Assembly (NCBI RefSeq): GCF_013122565.1
Contig: NZ_CP053258.1
DNA from: Escherichia coli
GTDB taxonomy: Bacteria > Pseudomonadota > Gammaproteobacteria > Enterobacterales > Enterobacteriaceae
DNA: 64,000 bases
Reading direction: 5' to 3' (one strand)
Shown here piece by piece: positions 45,001 to 51,000 of this stretch (its first letter is position 1; every line of letters begins with the position of its first letter). Position numbers: made by a program.

Positions 45001-48000
45001 CTTCAAACGGCACATTCAGGGTGCGACGGACAAAACTTGCCCCACCATCACAGGCCACCAGCCACTGGGCTTTGACTATTTCCCGCTGCCCTTCTGCCGT
45101 TTTCAGGTGCAAGGTCACTTCGTCATCTTGCTGACTGAAGACCTCCAGCTCGCGGGAAAACAAGCAGCGCACATTCGGAAAACGCGACACCCCTTCCAGC
45201 ATCACCGCATCGACCTGCGGCTGAATAAAGGCGTTACGGCGCGGCCAGCCAAATTCATCGGTCATTGGCTGAATATCAGCAAAACAGCGGCCCTTCGGGG
45301 TGAGAAAACGCATCGCGTGCCACGGCGTAGTATGCGGCAGAACATTATCGACCAGGCCGACCGACTGCATGGTGCGCAGCGCCTCGTCATCAATACCAAT
45401 CGCACGCGGGTAGTCGATCAACTTATCGAGTTTCTCCACCACCAGCACGTCAATGCCCATCTGGCCGAGATAGTTCGCCATCATCAGCCCGACCGGACCG
45501 GCACCAGCGATCGCCACCTGAACGCTATGGTTAACAGCAGGCTGGATGTCAGGGTGTTGTATTGCCATTTCAGTACCTCACGACTCGGACAAAATGCCGT
45601 TGCGCGCACAGTACAGCGCAACTTACTTTGTTAAAAACATGTAAATGATTTTTTATTGTGCGCTCAGTATAGGAAGGGTGTTTTCGGCTACAATCAAAAC
45701 ATGCCCGAATGTGCACCAGGTGCACAACGTTGTTTTAACTATAGAAATGTCAATTAATATGCAGAACAATGAGCAGACGGAATACAAAACCGTGCGCGGC
45801 TTAACCCGCGGTCTAATGTTATTAAATATGTTAAATAAACTTGACGGCGGTGCCAGCGTCGGGCTGCTGGCGGAACTCAGCGGCCTGCATCGCACCACTG
45901 TGCGGCGACTGCTGGAGACGCTGCAGGAAGAGGGATATGTCCGGCGTAGTCCCTCCGATGATAGTTTTCGTCTGACCATCAAAGTGCGGCAATTAAGCGA
46001 AGGATTTCGTGACGAACAGTGGATTTCTGCACTGGCGGCCCCACTGCTGGGCGATCTGTTACGCGAAGTGGTATGGCCGACAGATGTGTCCACGCTGGAT
46101 GTTGATGCAATGGTGGTACGCGAAACCACTCACCGTTTCAGCCGCTTATCCTTTCACCGGGCAATGGTCGGGCGACGTTTGCCGCTTCTGAAAACCGCCT
46201 CGGGCCTGACCTGGTTGGCCTTTTGCCCGGAACAAGAACGCAAGGAATTAATCGAGATGTTAGCCTCCCGCCCCGGTGATGACTATCAACTGGCACGAGA
46301 ACCGTTAAAGCTGGAAGCCATTCTGGCGCGCGCGCGCAAAGAGGGTTACGGACAGAACTACCGCGGCTGGGATCAGGAGGAGAAGATCGCCTCTATCGCC
46401 GTACCGCTGCGCAGTGAACAACGGGTGATTGGCTGTTTGAATCTGGTGTATATGGCGAGCGCAATGACCATCGAACAGGCAGCGGAAAAGCATCTTCCGG
46501 CACTACAACGGGTAGCAAAACAGATCGAAGAAGGGGTTGAATCGCAGGCTATTCTGGTGGCCGGACGGCGAAGCGGCGTGCATTTACGCTAGTTACGCCA
46601 ATGTGTAATTTGGCCCATTCTCATCGTTATTCGCCCATTTGCCCACATGCACAGTACGGGCTGCACGCTACGCTAATGACATCAATACTGTGATGTGGAG
46701 CAAATCATGAAAATTACGCAAATTCGTAATGCCACCCAAATTATCCAATACGCTGGCAAAACATTTCTTATCGACCCGTTACTCGCGCCTAAAGGAAGTT
46801 ATCCGGGTTTTGCCGGAACGGCACGCGCAGAAATCCGCAATCCAACGGTAGAATTACCGTGCGATTTAACAACGTTACTCAACGTTGACGCCCTAATCGT
46901 GACCCATTTGCATGAAGATCACTGGGACGAAACAGCCTCCCGCGTCGTTCCTAAAGATAAACTGATTTATGTGCAAAATGAGCAAGATGCTGAATCACTG
47001 AATAAACAAGGATTTACGCATCTTACCGTACTTACCGACGAGACTAAATTTGGCGATATTACTCTGCATAAAACGACAGGGCAGCACGGCTCCGATCGCA
47101 CCTATGCCGACCCGGCTATGGCGAAGCGTTTAGGCGCAGCCTGCGGCGTTGTTTTCCAGCACCCGACAGAGAAAACGCTCTATCTGGCTGGCGATACCCT
47201 CTGGCGTGACGACGTCGAGGCTACAATGCTAACTTTCCAACCAGAAGTGGTTGTGTTGAATGCCGGATTTGCGCATGTTCTGGGGCATGGCGCGATAATT
47301 ATGGGAGCAGAAGATATTCTCAAAACACATTTTACCCTGCCAGAAGCGCAAATTGTCGCGACACATATGGAGGCCGTAAACCACTGTTTGCTGACGCGTG
47401 ATGCGCTCAAGGAATACGCCAGAGATAATCAAATTATCGAATTTGTGAACGTACCAGAAGATGGTGAAACGTTGACATTCTAATTCGGAGATAAAGAGTG
47501 TTATGCGCCCGCTAACTGTTGCCATTATCGCCGTTGCCGGTTTTAGTCCTTTTCACCTTTCCGTACCGTTTATCGTATTTAGCGAAAAAATGGCGGAGAA
47601 AAAACACTTTCACGTAATTATCTGCGCTGAAAAGCCGGGAAACGTGGACTCTGCCGATGGGTTTTCCGTAACCGCCACCCATGACTATACCGCAGTCATC
47701 CAGGCGGATATTGTGATAATTCCTTACTGGGGAACAATTACACAAAAACCGCCACAAAAACTGCTGGAAGCCTTAACGACCGCACGGGATAACGGCGCAC
47801 AGATTGTCGGGCTTTGCCTGGGCACGTTTGTGCTCGGCTATGCAGGTTTACTGAAAAATAAGCGTGCCGCCACGCACTGGGAGTTCGAGCGTGAATTTCA
47901 GGCACGTTTTCCACAAACACATCTGGATATTAACGCGTTGTACGTAGACGATGACGGCATTATTACCTCTGCCGGTACTGCCGCGGCGCTGGATTGCTGT

Positions 48001-51000
48001 TTGTATATTGTTCGGCAACATTTTGGCAGCGACTATGCTAACCATATTGCCCGACGGATGGTCGTACCGCCATATCGCACCGGCGGTCAGGCGCAGTTTA
48101 TTGAGCAACCAGTGCCGAAAAATACCCATGATGAACGCATAAACCTCCTGCTGGATTACCTGCGGCAAAACATTGCGCAACAGCATGATCTCGACTCGCT
48201 GGCGCAGCGAGTAATGATGAGTCGCCGCACATTAACTCGCCATTTTATGAAAGCGACCGGTTCGAGTATCGCCGAATGGCTCATTACTGAACGCTTACGC
48301 CGTAGCCAGGAACTGTTGGGATCCAGTCAGTTGCCCGTTGAGCGGATAGCGGCTGAGGTGGGTTTTCTCTCACCTGTGACCTGGCGTCAGCATTTTAAAT
48401 CTCACTTCGGCGTCAGCCCCGCCGAATGGCGCAAAACCTTTCGCGGTATGGCATGATAGCGCGTGCAGGAAAGTCAATTCAGGTTCCCCACTAACCAACT
48501 GAATTGTGGGAAGATTGCTTTATCAGGCTTAATACAAGCCATTCGGTAACAGTTTTTCTCGCTCCCGCCCTGTCACTCCTGTTGATTGTGCAATGTTACA
48601 AAAATGCTTCATTTTTGTTGATTTTCTACTGTGATCAATTCGGCAATATCCTCTCCTGAATTTCACCAGACTACTTCCAGCCCATTCGCAATATCAGGAG
48701 AGACAAATGAGCAGCACCTCCGCCGACTTCCAGAATTTGTATCAGGCACTGAGTCACAGCGCCGCCCGCAGTCCGAATGACCTGGCGCTGGCGTTTGAGG
48801 ATCAGCGCTATATGTACCGCGATTTTCACCTGCGGGTACAGCGGACGATGGCGCAACTTGACCGCAGCTGGTCGTTGCGCAAAGGCGACCGGATCCTGCT
48901 GGCCCTGGGGAATCATCCCGCTTTTTGCGAAGTCCTTTTTGCGGCAGTTGGTCTGGGCATCGAGGTGGTGCCTTTCAGCACTAAGCTTAAGCAGGCCGAG
49001 AGCGAGGAGCTGGTGGGTCATATCGCGCCCCAGGTCGTGCTGTTCGATGCAACCGTGCAGGACTGGCTGAAAAACACCCCCAACGCGCGCGCTGTTTCAC
49101 TTAGTGAATGGCTGGCGCTTTCTCTTCCCGAACCGCTGACTCGCCTGCCGGCCCAGGTTAACCGCGACGACACGGCGGTGATGATGTTTACCTCAGGTAC
49201 TACCGGGGAGCCAAAAGGCGCGATTATCACCCACCATAATCTGCTCTGCGCGATTGACGCCTATACGCAAAAACTGAATCTGACCGCTGCGGATAGCACT
49301 ATTCTGGCGGTGCCTATTTATCACATCACTGGCCTGTCGGCGCTGCTGGCGCTGTTTATTAGCCTTGGTGCGAGCATCTGGCTGCAACACCGGTTCAATG
49401 CCTCGCAGGTGATCAATACCCTGCGCGAGCAAAATATTACCTTTCTGCACGGCTCGCCAACCATCTTTATCCTCCTATGTCAGGCGGCACGCGAAATAAG
49501 CGACAGCCATCCGGGCGATTTTCCCGCGCTACGGACGATCGCTTGCGGTGCGGGCCACCTGAGCGACGGCCTTATCAAAGAGTTAAAAACGCTGTTCCCG
49601 CATACGGCAATTCAGCCGATCTACGGGCTCACCGAAACGACCTCACCCGCGACGATTTTTCCAGGCGACGTCTGGGGTAGCGAGAAATGCGGCAGTTCGG
49701 GCCAGGCGATCCCCGGCCTCACGATTACGATTCGCAACGATCGCCAGCAACGTCTCCCTGCCGGACAAATTGGGCATATCTGGCTGAAAGGCGATGTGGT
49801 CATCCGCGAGTACTGGCAGCACAGCGAAAGACGCCCGAGCTGCGATGAACAGGGCTGGTTTTGTACGGGTGATTTGGGCTATCTCGACGACGAAGGCTGG
49901 CTGTACATCAAAGACCGCAGTAAAGACATGATCAATCGCGGTGGGGAGAAAATTTACTCTCTGGAGCTGGAAAACATTCTCTCTACCTATCGGGGAGTAC
50001 GGGAAGTCGCCGTGATCCCGGCCCCCAGCCCGCTCTATGGTGAAGAGCCGGTGGCGTTTATCGTGCCGGACGGTCAACACCACCTGACAAGCGAAGAGAT
50101 CCTCTGCTGGCTGAAGGTCAAAATTGCCCGCTTTAAGCTTCCGGCACGCATTATTTTCACCCGCATTTTACCCCGTACCCATAACGGAAAAGTGAGCAAA
50201 CAACAGCTCAAAACACGCCTTGCGGAATCGATCATCACGTTATCAACGGAGGATAAACAGTGAGTAACAAATTTATCAGCGCCCATGAAGCGGCGCAGTT
50301 AGTCACCAGCGGCGATACCGTCTGCACCGTCGGGATGACGCTTATCGGCGCGGCAGAATCCATTTTAGCGGCCATTGAAGCGCGCTTTCTGACCGAGGGC
50401 ACACCGCGCGATCTGACATTGTTACATGCCGCAGGGCAAAGCGATCGGCAGCGCGGCATTCAGCACTTCGCCCATCAGGGAATGGTGACGCGGCTTATCG
50501 GTTCGCACTGGGGCCTTGCGCCGCGCTGGATGGCGATGATCAACAACAACGAAGTGGAAGCCTGGTGCCTGCCGCAGGGGCAGATCGTCCATCTTTATAG
50601 CGCGATGGCCGCCGGACTTACAGGGCGACTCTCCCCCGTCGGGCTGGGTACTTTTGTCGATCCGCGCATAGAAGGCGGGCGGATGAATGCCCGTACCCGC
50701 GAAAAGCCAGATCTGATTGAGCATGTGATGTTTCGCGGCGACGAGTATCTGTTTTATCCAGCCATTCCCCTGAACGTCGTCATTGTGCGCGGAACTCATG
50801 CCGATGAAGACGGCAACCTCACTACGGATGAAGAGGTCATGAAACTGGAAGTTCTGCACGCGGTTCTCGCCGCCAGACGTTACGGGGCGAAGGTGCTGGC
50901 GCAGGTGAAATATCGTGTGGCGAAAGGTTCGCTGCATCCGAAAAGCGTCACCGTTCCTGGCAACCTGATCGATGCCATTGTGGTGTGCAACGAGCCGCAG

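What the first reader, a model, noticed from the sequence alone, without database searches (positions are those of the whole stretch)
46593..48706. Divergently regulated front of the island: MBL-fold hydrolase, GlxA-type regulator and a 250-bp AT-rich promoter before the CoA ligase
The island starts 114 nt after the mhpR stop with an MBL-fold hydrolase (HxHxDH motif; the fold includes lactonases and other hydrolases). It is followed by a regulator with a DJ-1/PfpI sensor domain fused to an AraC HTH, which is a plausible local regulator. The 48457-48706 intergenic region is AT-rich with TGTGA-containing half-sites (tgtgatcaattc) and A/T tracts, consistent with a regulated, possibly CRP-dependent promoter. 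The island therefore carries a second predicted lactone/ester hydrolase besides the SMP-30 protein.
Basis: inference. Interest (0 to 1): 0.45.

Follow-up and report, generated by a model that had tools for sequence, protein, structure and literature searches.

The report
Known OI-19 cassette, not island front
The two genes taken for the front of a catabolic island are the known E. coli O-island 19 (virulence regulator OvrA plus a partner gene that looks like an isothiocyanate-detoxifying hydrolase); the real island is a Klebsiella-type gene cluster that begins just after the old lacI promoter and has replaced the lac operon.

Summary
The ORFs, the HLHEDH motif, the DJ-1/PfpI+AraC architecture and the string tgtgatcaattc are all present. 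The interpretation mostly fails.

1. Every gene from mhpR to the CoA ligase is on the + strand, so nothing is divergent.
2. 46589-48422 is O-island 19 of E. coli O157:H7 (z0443 + ovrA). Each protein differs from its O157 counterpart by one residue. In other E. coli it lies between mhpR and lacI.
3. The MBL protein matches the crystallised isothiocyanate hydrolase SaxA over its full length (E 4e-88, 54% identity). It is probably not a lactonase.
4. The MBL and GlxA-type regulator genes were adjacent in all eight other contexts examined. All share a 40-nt direct-repeat operator followed by a -10-like hexamer, here at 46607-46674. That operator scores 31 bits there and -11 bits in front of the CoA ligase.
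5. 48423-48483 is the classical lacI promoter.
6. 48484-58990 is about 90% identical to Klebsiella chromosomal DNA, replaces lacIZYA, is absent from 5,426 complete E. coli genomes, and carries its own CdaR-type regulator.
7. No CRP palindrome or sigma-70 consensus lies in 48457-48706, but its last ~125 nt are conserved across genera.

The unpublished lead is that OI-19 may be an isothiocyanate-sensing and detoxifying cassette.

The parts
46589..48422 (+). O-island 19 segment (absent from K-12): saxA-like MBL gene plus ovrA, with their own promoter region
   Evidence: The K-12 alignment stops at 46588 and resumes at 48423, and the O157 locus matches 44400-48483 at 99.1%. That span is 1834 nt, the size published for OI-19 (PMC8565820). 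RefSeq names the regulator 'OI-19-encoded virulence regulator OvrA'.
46607..46646 (+). Conserved operator-like block. Direct repeats TTGGCCCATT (46610-46619) and TTCGCCCATT (46630-46639) lie 20 nt apart, followed by TGCCCAC (46640-46646). This is the predicted binding site of the cassette's own AraC-type regulator.
   Evidence: It is the only alignable block upstream of the MBL gene in 7 genera (A2), and the repeat was also found independently. A PWM built from the 6 other genera scores 31.0 bits here; the next best hit in 64 kb scores 3.7. The same motif is the top hit upstream of the MBL gene on an E. coli IncY plasmid. Binding has not been tested.
46669..46674 (+). Predicted -10 hexamer TACGCT of the MBL-ovrA operon (with C46668, CTACGCT, sigma-S-like). 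The transcription start is predicted near 46681.
   Evidence: A TAnnnT hexamer lies exactly 22 nt after the operator block in 6 of 7 genera, while the 22 nt between are not conserved. Z0443 is 10-fold RpoS-dependent in EDL933 (PMC2907692). The start site is inferred, not mapped.
46707..47483 (+). SaxA-family MBL-fold hydrolase (z0443 orthologue, 258 aa), a predicted isothiocyanate hydrolase
   Evidence: PDB 6BRM 'isothiocyanate hydrolase SaxA' matches at E 4.1e-88 over residues 1-258, and the next unrelated MBL scores E 0.0085. Identity is 54% and all metal-ligand motifs are kept. The protein differs from O157 Z0443 by 1 residue.
47503..48456 (+). ovrA: GlxA-type regulator (DJ-1/PfpI sensor domain with Cys105, plus AraC HTH), 317 aa
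   Evidence: Pfam domains. One residue differs from O157 OvrA. Cys105 aligns with the catalytic Cys of isocyanide hydratase InhA. The VGLCLG motif is invariant in 7 genera.
48423..48483 (+). lacI promoter and 5'-UTR relic: -35 GCGCAA at 48429-48434 and -10 CATGAT at 48452-48457 (overlapping the ovrA stop codon), then 26 nt of lacI leader
   Evidence: This stretch is 61 nt, 91.8% identical to the K-12 mhpR-lacI spacer. Alignment with K-12, O157 and C. rodentium is in A3 and the K-12 sequence. The hexamer positions come from my memory of Calos 1978. They agree with the PvuI, NheI and MunI engineering sites described in PMC7049694.
48484..48516 (+). 33-nt junction segment of unknown origin; CTGAATTG at 48499-48506 is the reverse complement of CAATTCAG at 48475-48482
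   Evidence: It aligns neither to E. coli nor to Klebsiella.
48517..48706 (+). Klebsiella-type leader and promoter region of the CoA-ligase operon. The conserved core is 48583-48706, with blocks ATTGTGCAATGTTACAAAA, TTGTTGATTTTCT, TGTGA, TTCGGCAA and CCAGACTACT.
   Evidence: The whole 48517-57641 block is 90.7% identical to K. oxytoca. Alignment of 6 loci, including CwR94 whose cluster is 77% identical, is in A1. No sigma-70 consensus and no + strand terminator were found, and there was no Rfam hit.
48630..48645 (+). The TGTGA half is invariant across the 6 loci.
   Evidence: Two such 3-mismatch 16-mers lie in the gap, against 0.71 expected per 250 nt.
48651..48702 (+). Perfect 9-nt anti-SD/SD pair: CTCTCCTGA (48651-48659) and TCAGGAGAG (48694-48702), which could sequester the CoA-ligase ribosome-binding site
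   Evidence: The pair is present in the Klebsiella loci without covariation and is not kept in CwR94. My rough estimate of the chance expectation is about 0.06.
48484..58990 (+). 10.5-kb Klebsiella-type catabolic cluster that replaces lacI-lacZ-lacY-lacA: CoA ligase, CoA transferase, SDR, thiolase, MFS, SMP-30/SGL, MFS, CdaR-type regulator
   Evidence: No complete E. coli genome of 5,426 matches it. It is 88-91% identical to K. oxytoca, K. grimontii and K. pneumoniae. The flanks are 98.3% identical to K-12.
57725..58882 (+). CdaR/PucR-type regulator, the cluster's own co-inherited regulator candidate
   Evidence: Diacid_rec 2.8e-41 plus HTH_30. NCBIfam CdaR scores 156.6 bits, below the 612-bit cut-off. 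The gene is present at the 3' end of the cluster in five of the related loci, L004, L005, L007, L008 and L009.

Best explanation
The interval 46593-48706 is a composite of three unrelated pieces.

(A) 46589-48422 is O-island 19. It is a self-contained two-gene cassette made of a SaxA-family metallo-hydrolase (R-N=C=S + H2O -> R-NH2 + COS) and its GlxA-type regulator OvrA.
- The two genes are co-transcribed; the gap between them is 19 nt.
- Their promoter has a -10 at 46669-46674.
- The AraC-type regulator is predicted to bind as a dimer to two direct repeats 20 nt apart (46610-46639) that abut the -35 position, a class-II-like activator layout.
- I infer that the DJ-1/PfpI domain, through its conserved Cys105, senses the electrophilic substrate.

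(B) 48423-48483 is the weak constitutive lacI promoter. It lies inside the 3' end of ovrA and has survived the loss of lacI.

(C) 48484-48706 is the left end of a 10.5-kb Klebsiella-type catabolic cluster that replaced lacIZYA.
- Its conserved 125-nt leader most likely holds an activator-dependent promoter served by the cluster's own CdaR-type regulator.
- No terminator separates ovrA/PlacI from the CoA ligase, so low-level read-through into the cluster is also likely.

Shown here: the boundaries, homologies, synteny and motif conservation. Inferred: enzyme substrate, regulator-operator binding, ligand sensing, transcription start sites and CdaR control.
For: Boundaries:
- K-12 aligns to 44679-46588, 48423-48483 and 58991-62151.
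- O157 and strain LR14 align through 48483 at 99.1-99.3%.
- RefSeq shows the order mhpR-MBL-ovrA-lacIZYA-cynX.
- 435 of 5,426 complete genomes hold the pair, and none holds 48484-58990.

OI-19 and OvrA literature: PMC8565820 and PMC10877973.

SaxA assignment:
- 6BRM matches at E 4.1e-88 over the full length, with 54% identity and all metal motifs kept.
- The family's reaction is documented, and ITCase activity is reported as preserved in all five SaxA clades (PMC7036374).

The cassette is a unit:
- The MBL gene and a DJ-1_PfpI/HTH_18 gene are adjacent on the same strand in C. rodentium, Enterobacter, Klebsiella, Yersinia, Photorhabdus, the Pectobacterium source of 6BRM, and an E. coli IncY plasmid. 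All other neighbours differ.
- The two proteins co-diverge, at 54-77% and 56-72% identity.

Operator and promoter:
- The upstream block is conserved in A2.
- The PWM scores 31.0 bits at 46607 against -11.3 bits as the best in 48440-48706.
- A -10-like hexamer sits at a fixed 22-nt distance.
- The motif was recovered independently on the plasmid.
- Z0443 is RpoS-dependent.

lacI promoter.

Klebsiella origin and own regulator.

Conserved leader. No + strand terminator.
Against: - No enzyme assay exists for the E. coli protein. Reviews from 2021 and 2024 call z0443 'unknown function' and report that its deletion has no virulence phenotype.
- The published OvrA footprint at LEE1 (GACATTTAATGATAATG) is AT-rich and does not resemble the GC-rich TGGCCYGAT repeats. 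It is also absent from the window at up to 3 mismatches. Either OvrA has two binding modes or the conserved block binds something else.
- OvrA scores below the NCBIfam FtrA cut-off (324.6 against 425 bits).
- No sigma-70-like hexamer pair was found in the CoA-ligase leader, so the position of its promoter is unknown.
- No motif is shared among the cluster's intergenic regions to support a common CdaR site.
- In Pseudomonas viridiflava, saxC was not induced by isothiocyanate (PMC12903958).
Confidence: 0.72

Rival explanations
1. One reading: the MBL hydrolase and the GlxA regulator are the first genes of one acquired catabolic island. The regulator controls a CRP-dependent promoter at 48457-48706, and the MBL enzyme is a second lactonase or esterase of the pathway.
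For: The genes are physically adjacent and co-oriented, with no terminator between ovrA and the CoA ligase. The gap has moderately low GC. One TGTGA is conserved in the leader. JGI names some family members 'UlaG (beta-lactamase superfamily)'.
Against: - The pair sits next to lacI in 435 E. coli genomes that lack the cluster.
- The cluster in Klebsiella, CwR94 and Affinibrenneria lacks the pair.
- 61 nt of K-12-homologous DNA separate the two segments.
- The cassette operator is absent from the CoA-ligase leader.
- No CRP palindrome exists within 2 mismatches.
- The nearest characterised enzyme is an isothiocyanate hydrolase, not a lactonase.
Confidence: 0.06
2. Operon capture by read-through: in this strain the CoA-ligase operon is transcribed mainly from upstream promoters (the MBL-ovrA promoter and the retained lacI promoter). 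Its expression would then follow OvrA/RpoS and a constitutive basal level rather than a dedicated promoter.
For: The PlacI hexamers are intact at 48429-48457. No intrinsic terminator was found on the + strand in 46400-48800, and no sigma-70 consensus in the leader. The junction lies in the lacI 5'-UTR, 9 nt before the former GTG.
Against: PlacI is a very weak promoter (PMC7049694). The leader's last 125 nt are conserved in genera where the upstream gene is unrelated and is followed by hairpins, which argues for a resident promoter. Rho-dependent termination in the 250-nt untranslated gap cannot be excluded.
Confidence: 0.3
3. The MBL protein is a SaxA-like fold with a different physiological substrate in gut E. 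coli, for example another electrophile or a metabolite unrelated to isothiocyanates. OvrA would then respond to that compound or to none.
For: [quoted passage not shown] Identity to 6BRM is 54%, not near-identity. No isothiocyanate phenotype is published for z0443.
Against: ITCase activity was reported as preserved in all five SaxA clades. The match is full-length and all ligand motifs are conserved. Isothiocyanates from crucifers are a realistic gut exposure (my own knowledge).
Confidence: 0.2

Closest known systems
O-island 19 of E. coli O157:H7 EDL933 (z0443 + z0442/ovrA; Liu et al. 2020, J Infect Dis 221:820, cited through PMC8565820 and PMC10877973)
   Same: The position after mhpR is the same, the span is the same 1834 nt, and the gene order and strand are the same. 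The proteins differ by 1 residue each and the 114-nt upstream region is identical.
   Different: Here the right-hand neighbour is not lacI but a Klebsiella-type cluster. Only the lacI promoter remains.
SaxA isothiocyanate hydrolases (Pseudomonas syringae saxCAB; Pectobacterium SaxA, PDB 6BRM)
   Same: Full-length homology (E 4e-88, 54% identity) with all MBL metal motifs. In the 6BRM source genome a DJ-1/PfpI-AraC regulator gene follows saxA, and an isochorismatase (SaxB-like) gene lies nearby.
   Different: The host is a gut E. coli rather than a plant pathogen or insect-gut isolate. No saxB or efflux genes are adjacent, and activity is untested. Whether P. syringae SaxC is of the GlxA type was not verified here.
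GlxA/FtrA-type AraC regulators with a DJ-1/PfpI (GATase1-like) sensor domain, such as FtrA and GbdR
   Same: The two-domain architecture is the same. The best NCBIfam hit is FtrA at 6.4e-97.
   Different: The score is below the FtrA equivalog cut-off (324.6 against 425 bits). This subgroup is tied to a SaxA gene, and it keeps the nucleophile-elbow Cys that aligns with the catalytic Cys of isocyanide hydratase.
The E. coli lacI promoter (Calos 1978; Steege 1977)
   Same: The -35 GCGCAA, 17-nt spacer and -10 CATGAT are identical to K-12.
   Different: Five substitutions cluster around the start-site region. The promoter now faces a CoA-ligase operon instead of lacI.
Klebsiella chromosomal cluster: CoA ligase, CoA transferase, SDR, thiolase, MFS, SMP-30 lactonase, MFS, glycerate kinase, CdaR regulator
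   Same: Gene order is the same, with 88-91% DNA identity and 92-94% identity for the CoA ligase.
   Different: The window copy lacks about 1.05 kb holding the glycerate kinase gene, of which only the first codons remain. It sits at the lac locus of an E. coli backbone.

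Membership tests
O-island 19 (z0443/ovrA) | Two-gene, ~1.83-kb segment immediately after mhpR that is absent from K-12 | tested here: met
   The gap in the K-12 alignment is 46589-48422, which is 1834 nt. The published size is 1834 bp.
O-island 19 (z0443/ovrA) | Near-identity to the O157:H7 genes | tested here: met
   99.1% DNA identity over 44400-48483. Each protein differs by 1 residue.
O-island 19 (z0443/ovrA) | Followed by lacI | tested here: not met
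   The lacI coding sequence is gone. Only its promoter and 26 nt of leader remain at 48423-48483.
SaxA isothiocyanate hydrolase subfamily of MBL-fold proteins | MBL metal-binding motifs (HxHxDH plus a downstream His, Asp and His) | tested here: met
   H67xH69xD71H72, and the QHG, GD and HME motifs, are invariant in 7 genera including 6BRM.
SaxA isothiocyanate hydrolase subfamily of MBL-fold proteins | Full-length homology to a characterised SaxA that is much closer than to any other MBL family | tested here: met
   6BRM scores E 4.1e-88 over residues 1-258. The next non-SaxA-like chain scores E 0.0085.
SaxA isothiocyanate hydrolase subfamily of MBL-fold proteins | Hydrolysis of isothiocyanates to amine plus COS; protection from isothiocyanates | not testable with these tools
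   This needs an enzyme assay and MIC or growth tests.
GlxA/FtrA-type AraC regulators | N-terminal DJ-1/PfpI domain plus C-terminal AraC double HTH | tested here: met
   PF01965 at 2.3e-12 (residues 6-171) and PF12833 at 1.5e-19 (residues 233-311).
GlxA/FtrA-type AraC regulators | Reaches the NCBIfam FtrA equivalog cut-off | tested here: not met
   324.6 bits against a cut-off of 425. It is a relative, not an FtrA equivalog.
CRP-dependent promoter | TGTGA-N6-TCACA palindrome close to consensus in the promoter region | tested here: not met
   No site with 2 or fewer mismatches lies in 48457-48706. Sites with 3 mismatches number 2, against 0.71 expected per 250 nt.
CRP-dependent promoter | Site centred near -41.5, -61.5 or -71.5 from a mapped start; cAMP-CRP dependence | not testable with these tools
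   No transcription start data are available.
AraC-type activator-dependent promoter (class-II-like) | Two direct-repeat half-sites about 20-21 nt apart abutting the -35 position, upstream of a -10 | tested here: met
   This holds for the MBL-ovrA promoter only: repeats at 46610 and 46630, conserved in 8 contexts, with a -10 hexamer 22 nt after the block. It does not hold in 48440-48706, where the PWM scores -11.3. Protein binding is untested.
CdaR/PucR-regulated sugar-acid cluster | Diacid_rec plus PucR HTH regulator encoded in the cluster and co-inherited with it | tested here: met
   Pfam hits. The regulator is present in five related loci, L004, L005, L007, L008 and L009. The NCBIfam CdaR equivalog cut-off is not reached (156.6 against 612 bits).
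CdaR/PucR-regulated sugar-acid cluster | A common operator in the cluster's promoters | tested here: inconclusive
   No regulatory 8-mer is shared among the five intergenic regions. The CdaR operator consensus is not available to me.

The most novel reading that the evidence does not exclude
OI-19 is an isothiocyanate-sensing and detoxifying cassette. OvrA detects dietary crucifer isothiocyanates, or related electrophiles, through covalent modification of Cys105 in its DJ-1/PfpI domain. That residue aligns with the catalytic Cys of isocyanide hydratase. Once modified, OvrA switches on the SaxA hydrolase from the conserved direct-repeat operator. In EHEC the same sensor has been wired to the LEE1 promoter, which would link a plant-derived dietary signal to attaching-and-effacing virulence. 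As a by-product, the classical lacI promoter is a piece of the ovrA 3' end, and K-12 lost the cassette by deletion.
Probability: 0.25. Interest if true: 0.7.

Novelty: new member of a known kind. Interest (0 to 1): 0.4.

Why it matters
- It corrects the map of this locus. The real acquired island starts at 48484 and is a Klebsiella-type cluster that replaced the lac operon. This arrangement is not seen in 5,426 complete E. coli genomes, and the lacI promoter now faces it.
- OvrA is an experimentally established activator of the LEE pathogenicity island in EHEC, yet its signal and its native target are not described in the reviews read here. Recognising its partner gene as a SaxA-type isothiocyanate hydrolase, with a conserved operator in front, gives both a candidate ligand class and a candidate native promoter. 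Each can be tested with simple assays.
- It suggests that 'O-island 19' is ancestral and was deleted in K-12, and that the textbook lacI promoter lies inside the end of ovrA.

Tried and rejected
- The OvrA LEE1 footprint motif (GACATTTAATGATAATG) has no match in the window at up to 3 mismatches.
- A CRP palindrome has no match at up to 2 mismatches in either intergenic region beyond chance. The hit at 46689 overlaps the MBL Shine-Dalgarno sequence, and the window as a whole has 17 hits against 24.6 expected.
- The sigma-70/terminator consensus scan of 46400-48800 found nothing on the + strand.
- An Rfam search of 46400-48900 at E<=1 found nothing.
- Folding the 264-nt leader gave z = -1.99, which is unremarkable.
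- An exact-sequence look-up of the CoA ligase found nothing on record, so the source strain was not identified.
- No regulatory 8-mer is shared among the cluster's intergenic regions.
- A 13-codon upstream ORF (48593-48634, read directly from the sequence) was rejected as a leader peptide. A 1-nt length difference puts the Klebsiella version in another frame.
- A GCCCATTC 8-mer at 48680 resembles the operator half-site. I rejected it as chance: it is a single copy 20 nt from the ATG and is not conserved in Klebsiella.
- The van den Bosch 2018 paper on SaxA structures is not held in the library, so active-site details could not be checked against it.
- No paper in the library links z0443 or OvrA to SaxA or isothiocyanates.

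Full report
**What is at the coordinates.**
- ORF listing and sequence show mhpA on the - strand and mhpR on the + strand, ending at 46592.
- A 258-codon ORF follows from ATG 46707, preceded by GGAG, 114 nt after the mhpR stop.
- After a 19-nt gap comes a 317-codon ORF at 47503-48456.
- A 250-nt gap then precedes a 518-codon ORF from 48707. All of these are on the + strand.
- Pfam confirms Lactamase_B_2 for the first ORF, DJ-1_PfpI plus HTH_18 for the second and AMP-binding for the third.
- The HxHxDH motif is H67-L-H-E-D-H72.
- The descriptive part of the finding is therefore right, but 'divergently regulated' is not. The only divergent pair nearby is mhpA/mhpR.

**The first two genes are O-island 19, not the front of the catabolic island.**
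- Megablast against 5,426 complete E. coli genomes matched query positions 1-1891 (window 46593-48483) at up to 99.5% in 435 genomes. The match stopped 27 nt after the regulator's stop codon.
- In those genomes the order is mhpR, MBL, ovrA, lacI, lacZ, lacY, lacA, cynX. RefSeq names the regulator 'OI-19-encoded virulence regulator OvrA'.
- Pairwise BLAST shows that K-12 aligns to 44679-46588, 48423-48483 and 58991 onward. O157:H7 aligns continuously from 44400 to 48483 at 99.1%.
- The K-12 gap, 46589-48422, is 1834 nt. That is exactly the size published for OI-19 (z0442/ovrA plus z0443) (PMC8565820).
- The window's proteins differ from the O157 proteins by one residue each, and the 114-nt upstream region is identical.
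- OvrA is a published activator of LEE1/ler. z0443 is described as having unknown function and no virulence phenotype.

**What the MBL protein is.**
- Against all PDB sequences the protein matches 6BRM, 'metal-dependent isothiocyanate hydrolase SaxA', over its entire length (E 4.1e-88). It also matches 3RPC (E 2e-72). The next MBL proteins score E about 0.01.
- Identity to 6BRM is 54%, and every metal-ligand motif is invariant.
- SaxA enzymes hydrolyse isothiocyanates to the amine plus carbonyl sulfide. They are widespread in Enterobacterales, and activity is reported as retained in all five clades (PMC7036374; PMC7303113).
- Calling it a second lactone/ester hydrolase of the island is therefore the less likely reading. 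I found no paper in the library linking z0443 to SaxA.

**The two genes form a conserved, portable cassette with its own operator and promoter.**
- In Citrobacter rodentium, Enterobacter cancerogenus, Klebsiella pneumoniae, Yersinia frederiksenii, Photorhabdus and the Pectobacterium genome that encodes the crystallised SaxA, the MBL gene is immediately followed on the same strand by a ~317-aa DJ-1_PfpI/HTH_18 gene. The same is true on an E. coli IncY plasmid. All other neighbours differ, and several are Tn3-type transposase or resolvase genes.
- The two proteins co-diverge: MBL 54-77% identity, regulator 56-72%.
- Upstream of the MBL gene only one block aligns across the seven genera: TTGGCCCgaT..CATCG....T.GCCC.....CCCAC.
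- In the window this block is the direct repeat TTGGCCCATT / TTCGCCCATT, 20 nt apart, at 46610-46639.
- A weight matrix built from the six other genera scores 31.0 bits at 46607-46646. The next best hit in the 64-kb window scores 3.7, and the best in 48440-48706 scores -11.3.
- Exactly 22 non-conserved nucleotides downstream of the block, six of seven genera have a TAnnnT hexamer: TACGCT here at 46669-46674, and TATGAT, TATCCT, TACGAT, TATAAT and TATCAT elsewhere.
- The IncY plasmid was not used to build the matrix, yet its top hit (22.4 bits) is in the same place.
- This layout is typical of an AraC-family activator bound as a dimer next to the -35 position (established knowledge of AraC, RhaS and XylS promoters).
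- CTACGCT also resembles a sigma-S -10. Z0443 is 10-fold RpoS-dependent in EDL933 (PMC2907692).
- That the regulator binds this block is inference. The published LEE1 footprint does not resemble it and is not found in the window. I leave that discrepancy open.

**A possible sensing mechanism (inference).** The regulator's DJ-1/PfpI domain is closest in the PDB to isocyanide hydratase InhA. OvrA Cys105 aligns with that enzyme's catalytic cysteine, and VGLCLG is invariant in all cassette regulators examined. Isothiocyanates are thiol-reactive electrophiles (general chemistry). Covalent sensing at Cys105 is therefore plausible but untested.

**The 61 nt between the two foreign segments is the lacI promoter.**
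- Window 48423-48483 aligns with the K-12 mhpR-lacI spacer. The stretch CGAATGGCGCAAAACCTTTCGCGGTATGGCATGATAGCGC is shared.
- From my memory of Calos 1978, GCGCAA is the -35 hexamer (mutated in lacIq) and CATGAT is the -10. The positions of the engineered PvuI, NheI and MunI sites described in PMC7049694 agree with this.
- In the window these hexamers are at 48429-48434 and 48452-48457, and the -10 overlaps the ovrA stop codon.
- K-12 therefore keeps the last ~11 codons of ovrA (IEWRKTFRGMA*). This argues that K-12 lost OI-19 by deletion and that the lacI promoter is embedded in ovrA.
- The junction with foreign DNA (48483/48484) lies 9 nt before the former lacI GTG.

**The real island.**
- Window 48484-58990 matches no complete E. 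coli genome.
- A scan of species-representative genomes found the same cluster in K. oxytoca, K. grimontii, K. pneumoniae, a MAG, Enterobacterales CwR94 and Affinibrenneria. DNA identity is 88-91% to the Klebsiella loci over 48517-58883.
- The cluster also occurs on a 279-kb K. pneumoniae plasmid.
- In Klebsiella the upstream neighbours are a DeoR regulator, an epimerase, a PfkB kinase and an MFS gene. There is no MBL or GlxA gene.
- The cluster ends with a CdaR/PucR-type regulator, which is the more plausible local regulator.
- Klebsiella has a glycerate kinase gene before that regulator. In the window only its first codons remain.

**The 250-nt gap itself.**
- It is a chimera: 27 nt of lacI leader, 33 nt of unknown origin (with a small inverted repeat across the junction) and 190 nt homologous to the Klebsiella leader.
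- GC is 42.8%, which is ordinary for intergenic DNA here.
- The last ~125 nt are strongly conserved, even in CwR94.
- The CoA ligase heads a four-gene operon with overlapping or near-abutting genes.
- In Klebsiella the leader follows hairpins downstream of an unrelated gene (by inspection).
- A resident, probably activator-dependent promoter is therefore likely. I could not place it: no sigma-70 consensus pair, no CRP palindrome beyond chance and no Rfam family.
- A perfect 9-nt anti-SD/SD pairing (48651-48659 with 48694-48702) is present but lacks covariation support.
- No + strand terminator separates ovrA and PlacI from the CoA ligase, so some read-through is expected.

**Verdict.**
- The genes are already known as OI-19.
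- What appears new is the SaxA identity of z0443, the conserved operator and promoter of the cassette, the location of the lacI promoter inside ovrA, and the replacement of the lac operon by a Klebsiella-type cluster in this strain.
- Interest is moderate. Most of it rests on the testable idea that OvrA is an isothiocyanate or electrophile sensor.

Noticed in passing
window 48423-48483; L003 (K-12) 9521-9581 on the - strand: The K-12 mhpR-lacI spacer retains the last ~11 codons of ovrA (IEWRKTFRGMA*), which carry the lacI -35 and -10 hexamers. OI-19 therefore looks ancestral and deleted in K-12, rather than inserted in O157.
   Followed up: partly
L012 (Citrobacter rodentium) 4001-8777: C. rodentium has the same order, MBL, GlxA regulator, lacI, lacZ, with a similar promoter-like sequence at the regulator's 3' end. 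The linkage of this cassette to lac therefore predates E. coli or was transferred as a block.
   Followed up: partly
window 57593-57724: The MFS2-CdaR spacer begins TTCAGGAGAACGCATGAAGATTGTTATCGCGCTGGATCC, which is the ribosome-binding site and first codons of the glycerate kinase gene present in Klebsiella (L004 18920-20095). About 1.05 kb has been deleted in the window.
   Followed up: partly
proteins P0190-P0199: Distant homologues of the CoA ligase (41-44% identity, ~890 aa) are fused to a glycerate kinase domain (PF02595). This hints that the CoA ligase and glycerate kinase act in one pathway.
   Followed up: no
window 58933-58962: A REP-like palindrome, TGTCGGATGCGCCACTGGGCACATCCGACA, lies in the ~107 nt between the CdaR-type gene and the point (58991) where homology to the K-12 cynX flank resumes.
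   Followed up: no
window 48475-48516: The 33-nt junction segment of unknown origin contains CTGAATTG, the reverse complement of CAATTCAG in the adjacent lacI leader. It also contains TTCCCCAC and GTGGGAA as a second imperfect inverted pair. Five substitutions relative to K-12 and O157 cluster just left of the junction (48461-48470).
   Followed up: partly
window 48651-48702: A perfect 9-nt complement (CTCTCCTGA / TCAGGAGAG) could sequester the CoA-ligase Shine-Dalgarno sequence. It is kept in Klebsiella but not in CwR94, and shows no covariation.
   Followed up: partly
L019 (E. coli IncY plasmid pTET-GZEC065) 3872-5782; A second SaxA-like cassette (64% identity), with its own GlxA-type regulator and the same operator motif, is carried on 128 E. 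coli plasmid records. Isothiocyanate-hydrolase-like cassettes may therefore circulate on phage-plasmids in gut and poultry E. coli.
   Followed up: partly
window 60692-61351 (cynT) relative to 46707-47483: SaxA-type hydrolysis releases carbonyl sulfide, a substrate of carbonic anhydrases. The cyn operon, with the carbonic anhydrase CynT, lies on the other side of the lac locus. This is probably coincidence.
   Followed up: no
NZ_CP091979.1 (K. pneumoniae 279-kb plasmid): The whole CoA-ligase cluster also occurs on a large Klebsiella plasmid at 89% identity, interrupted by ISKpn1. This offers a possible vehicle for transfer.
   Followed up: no
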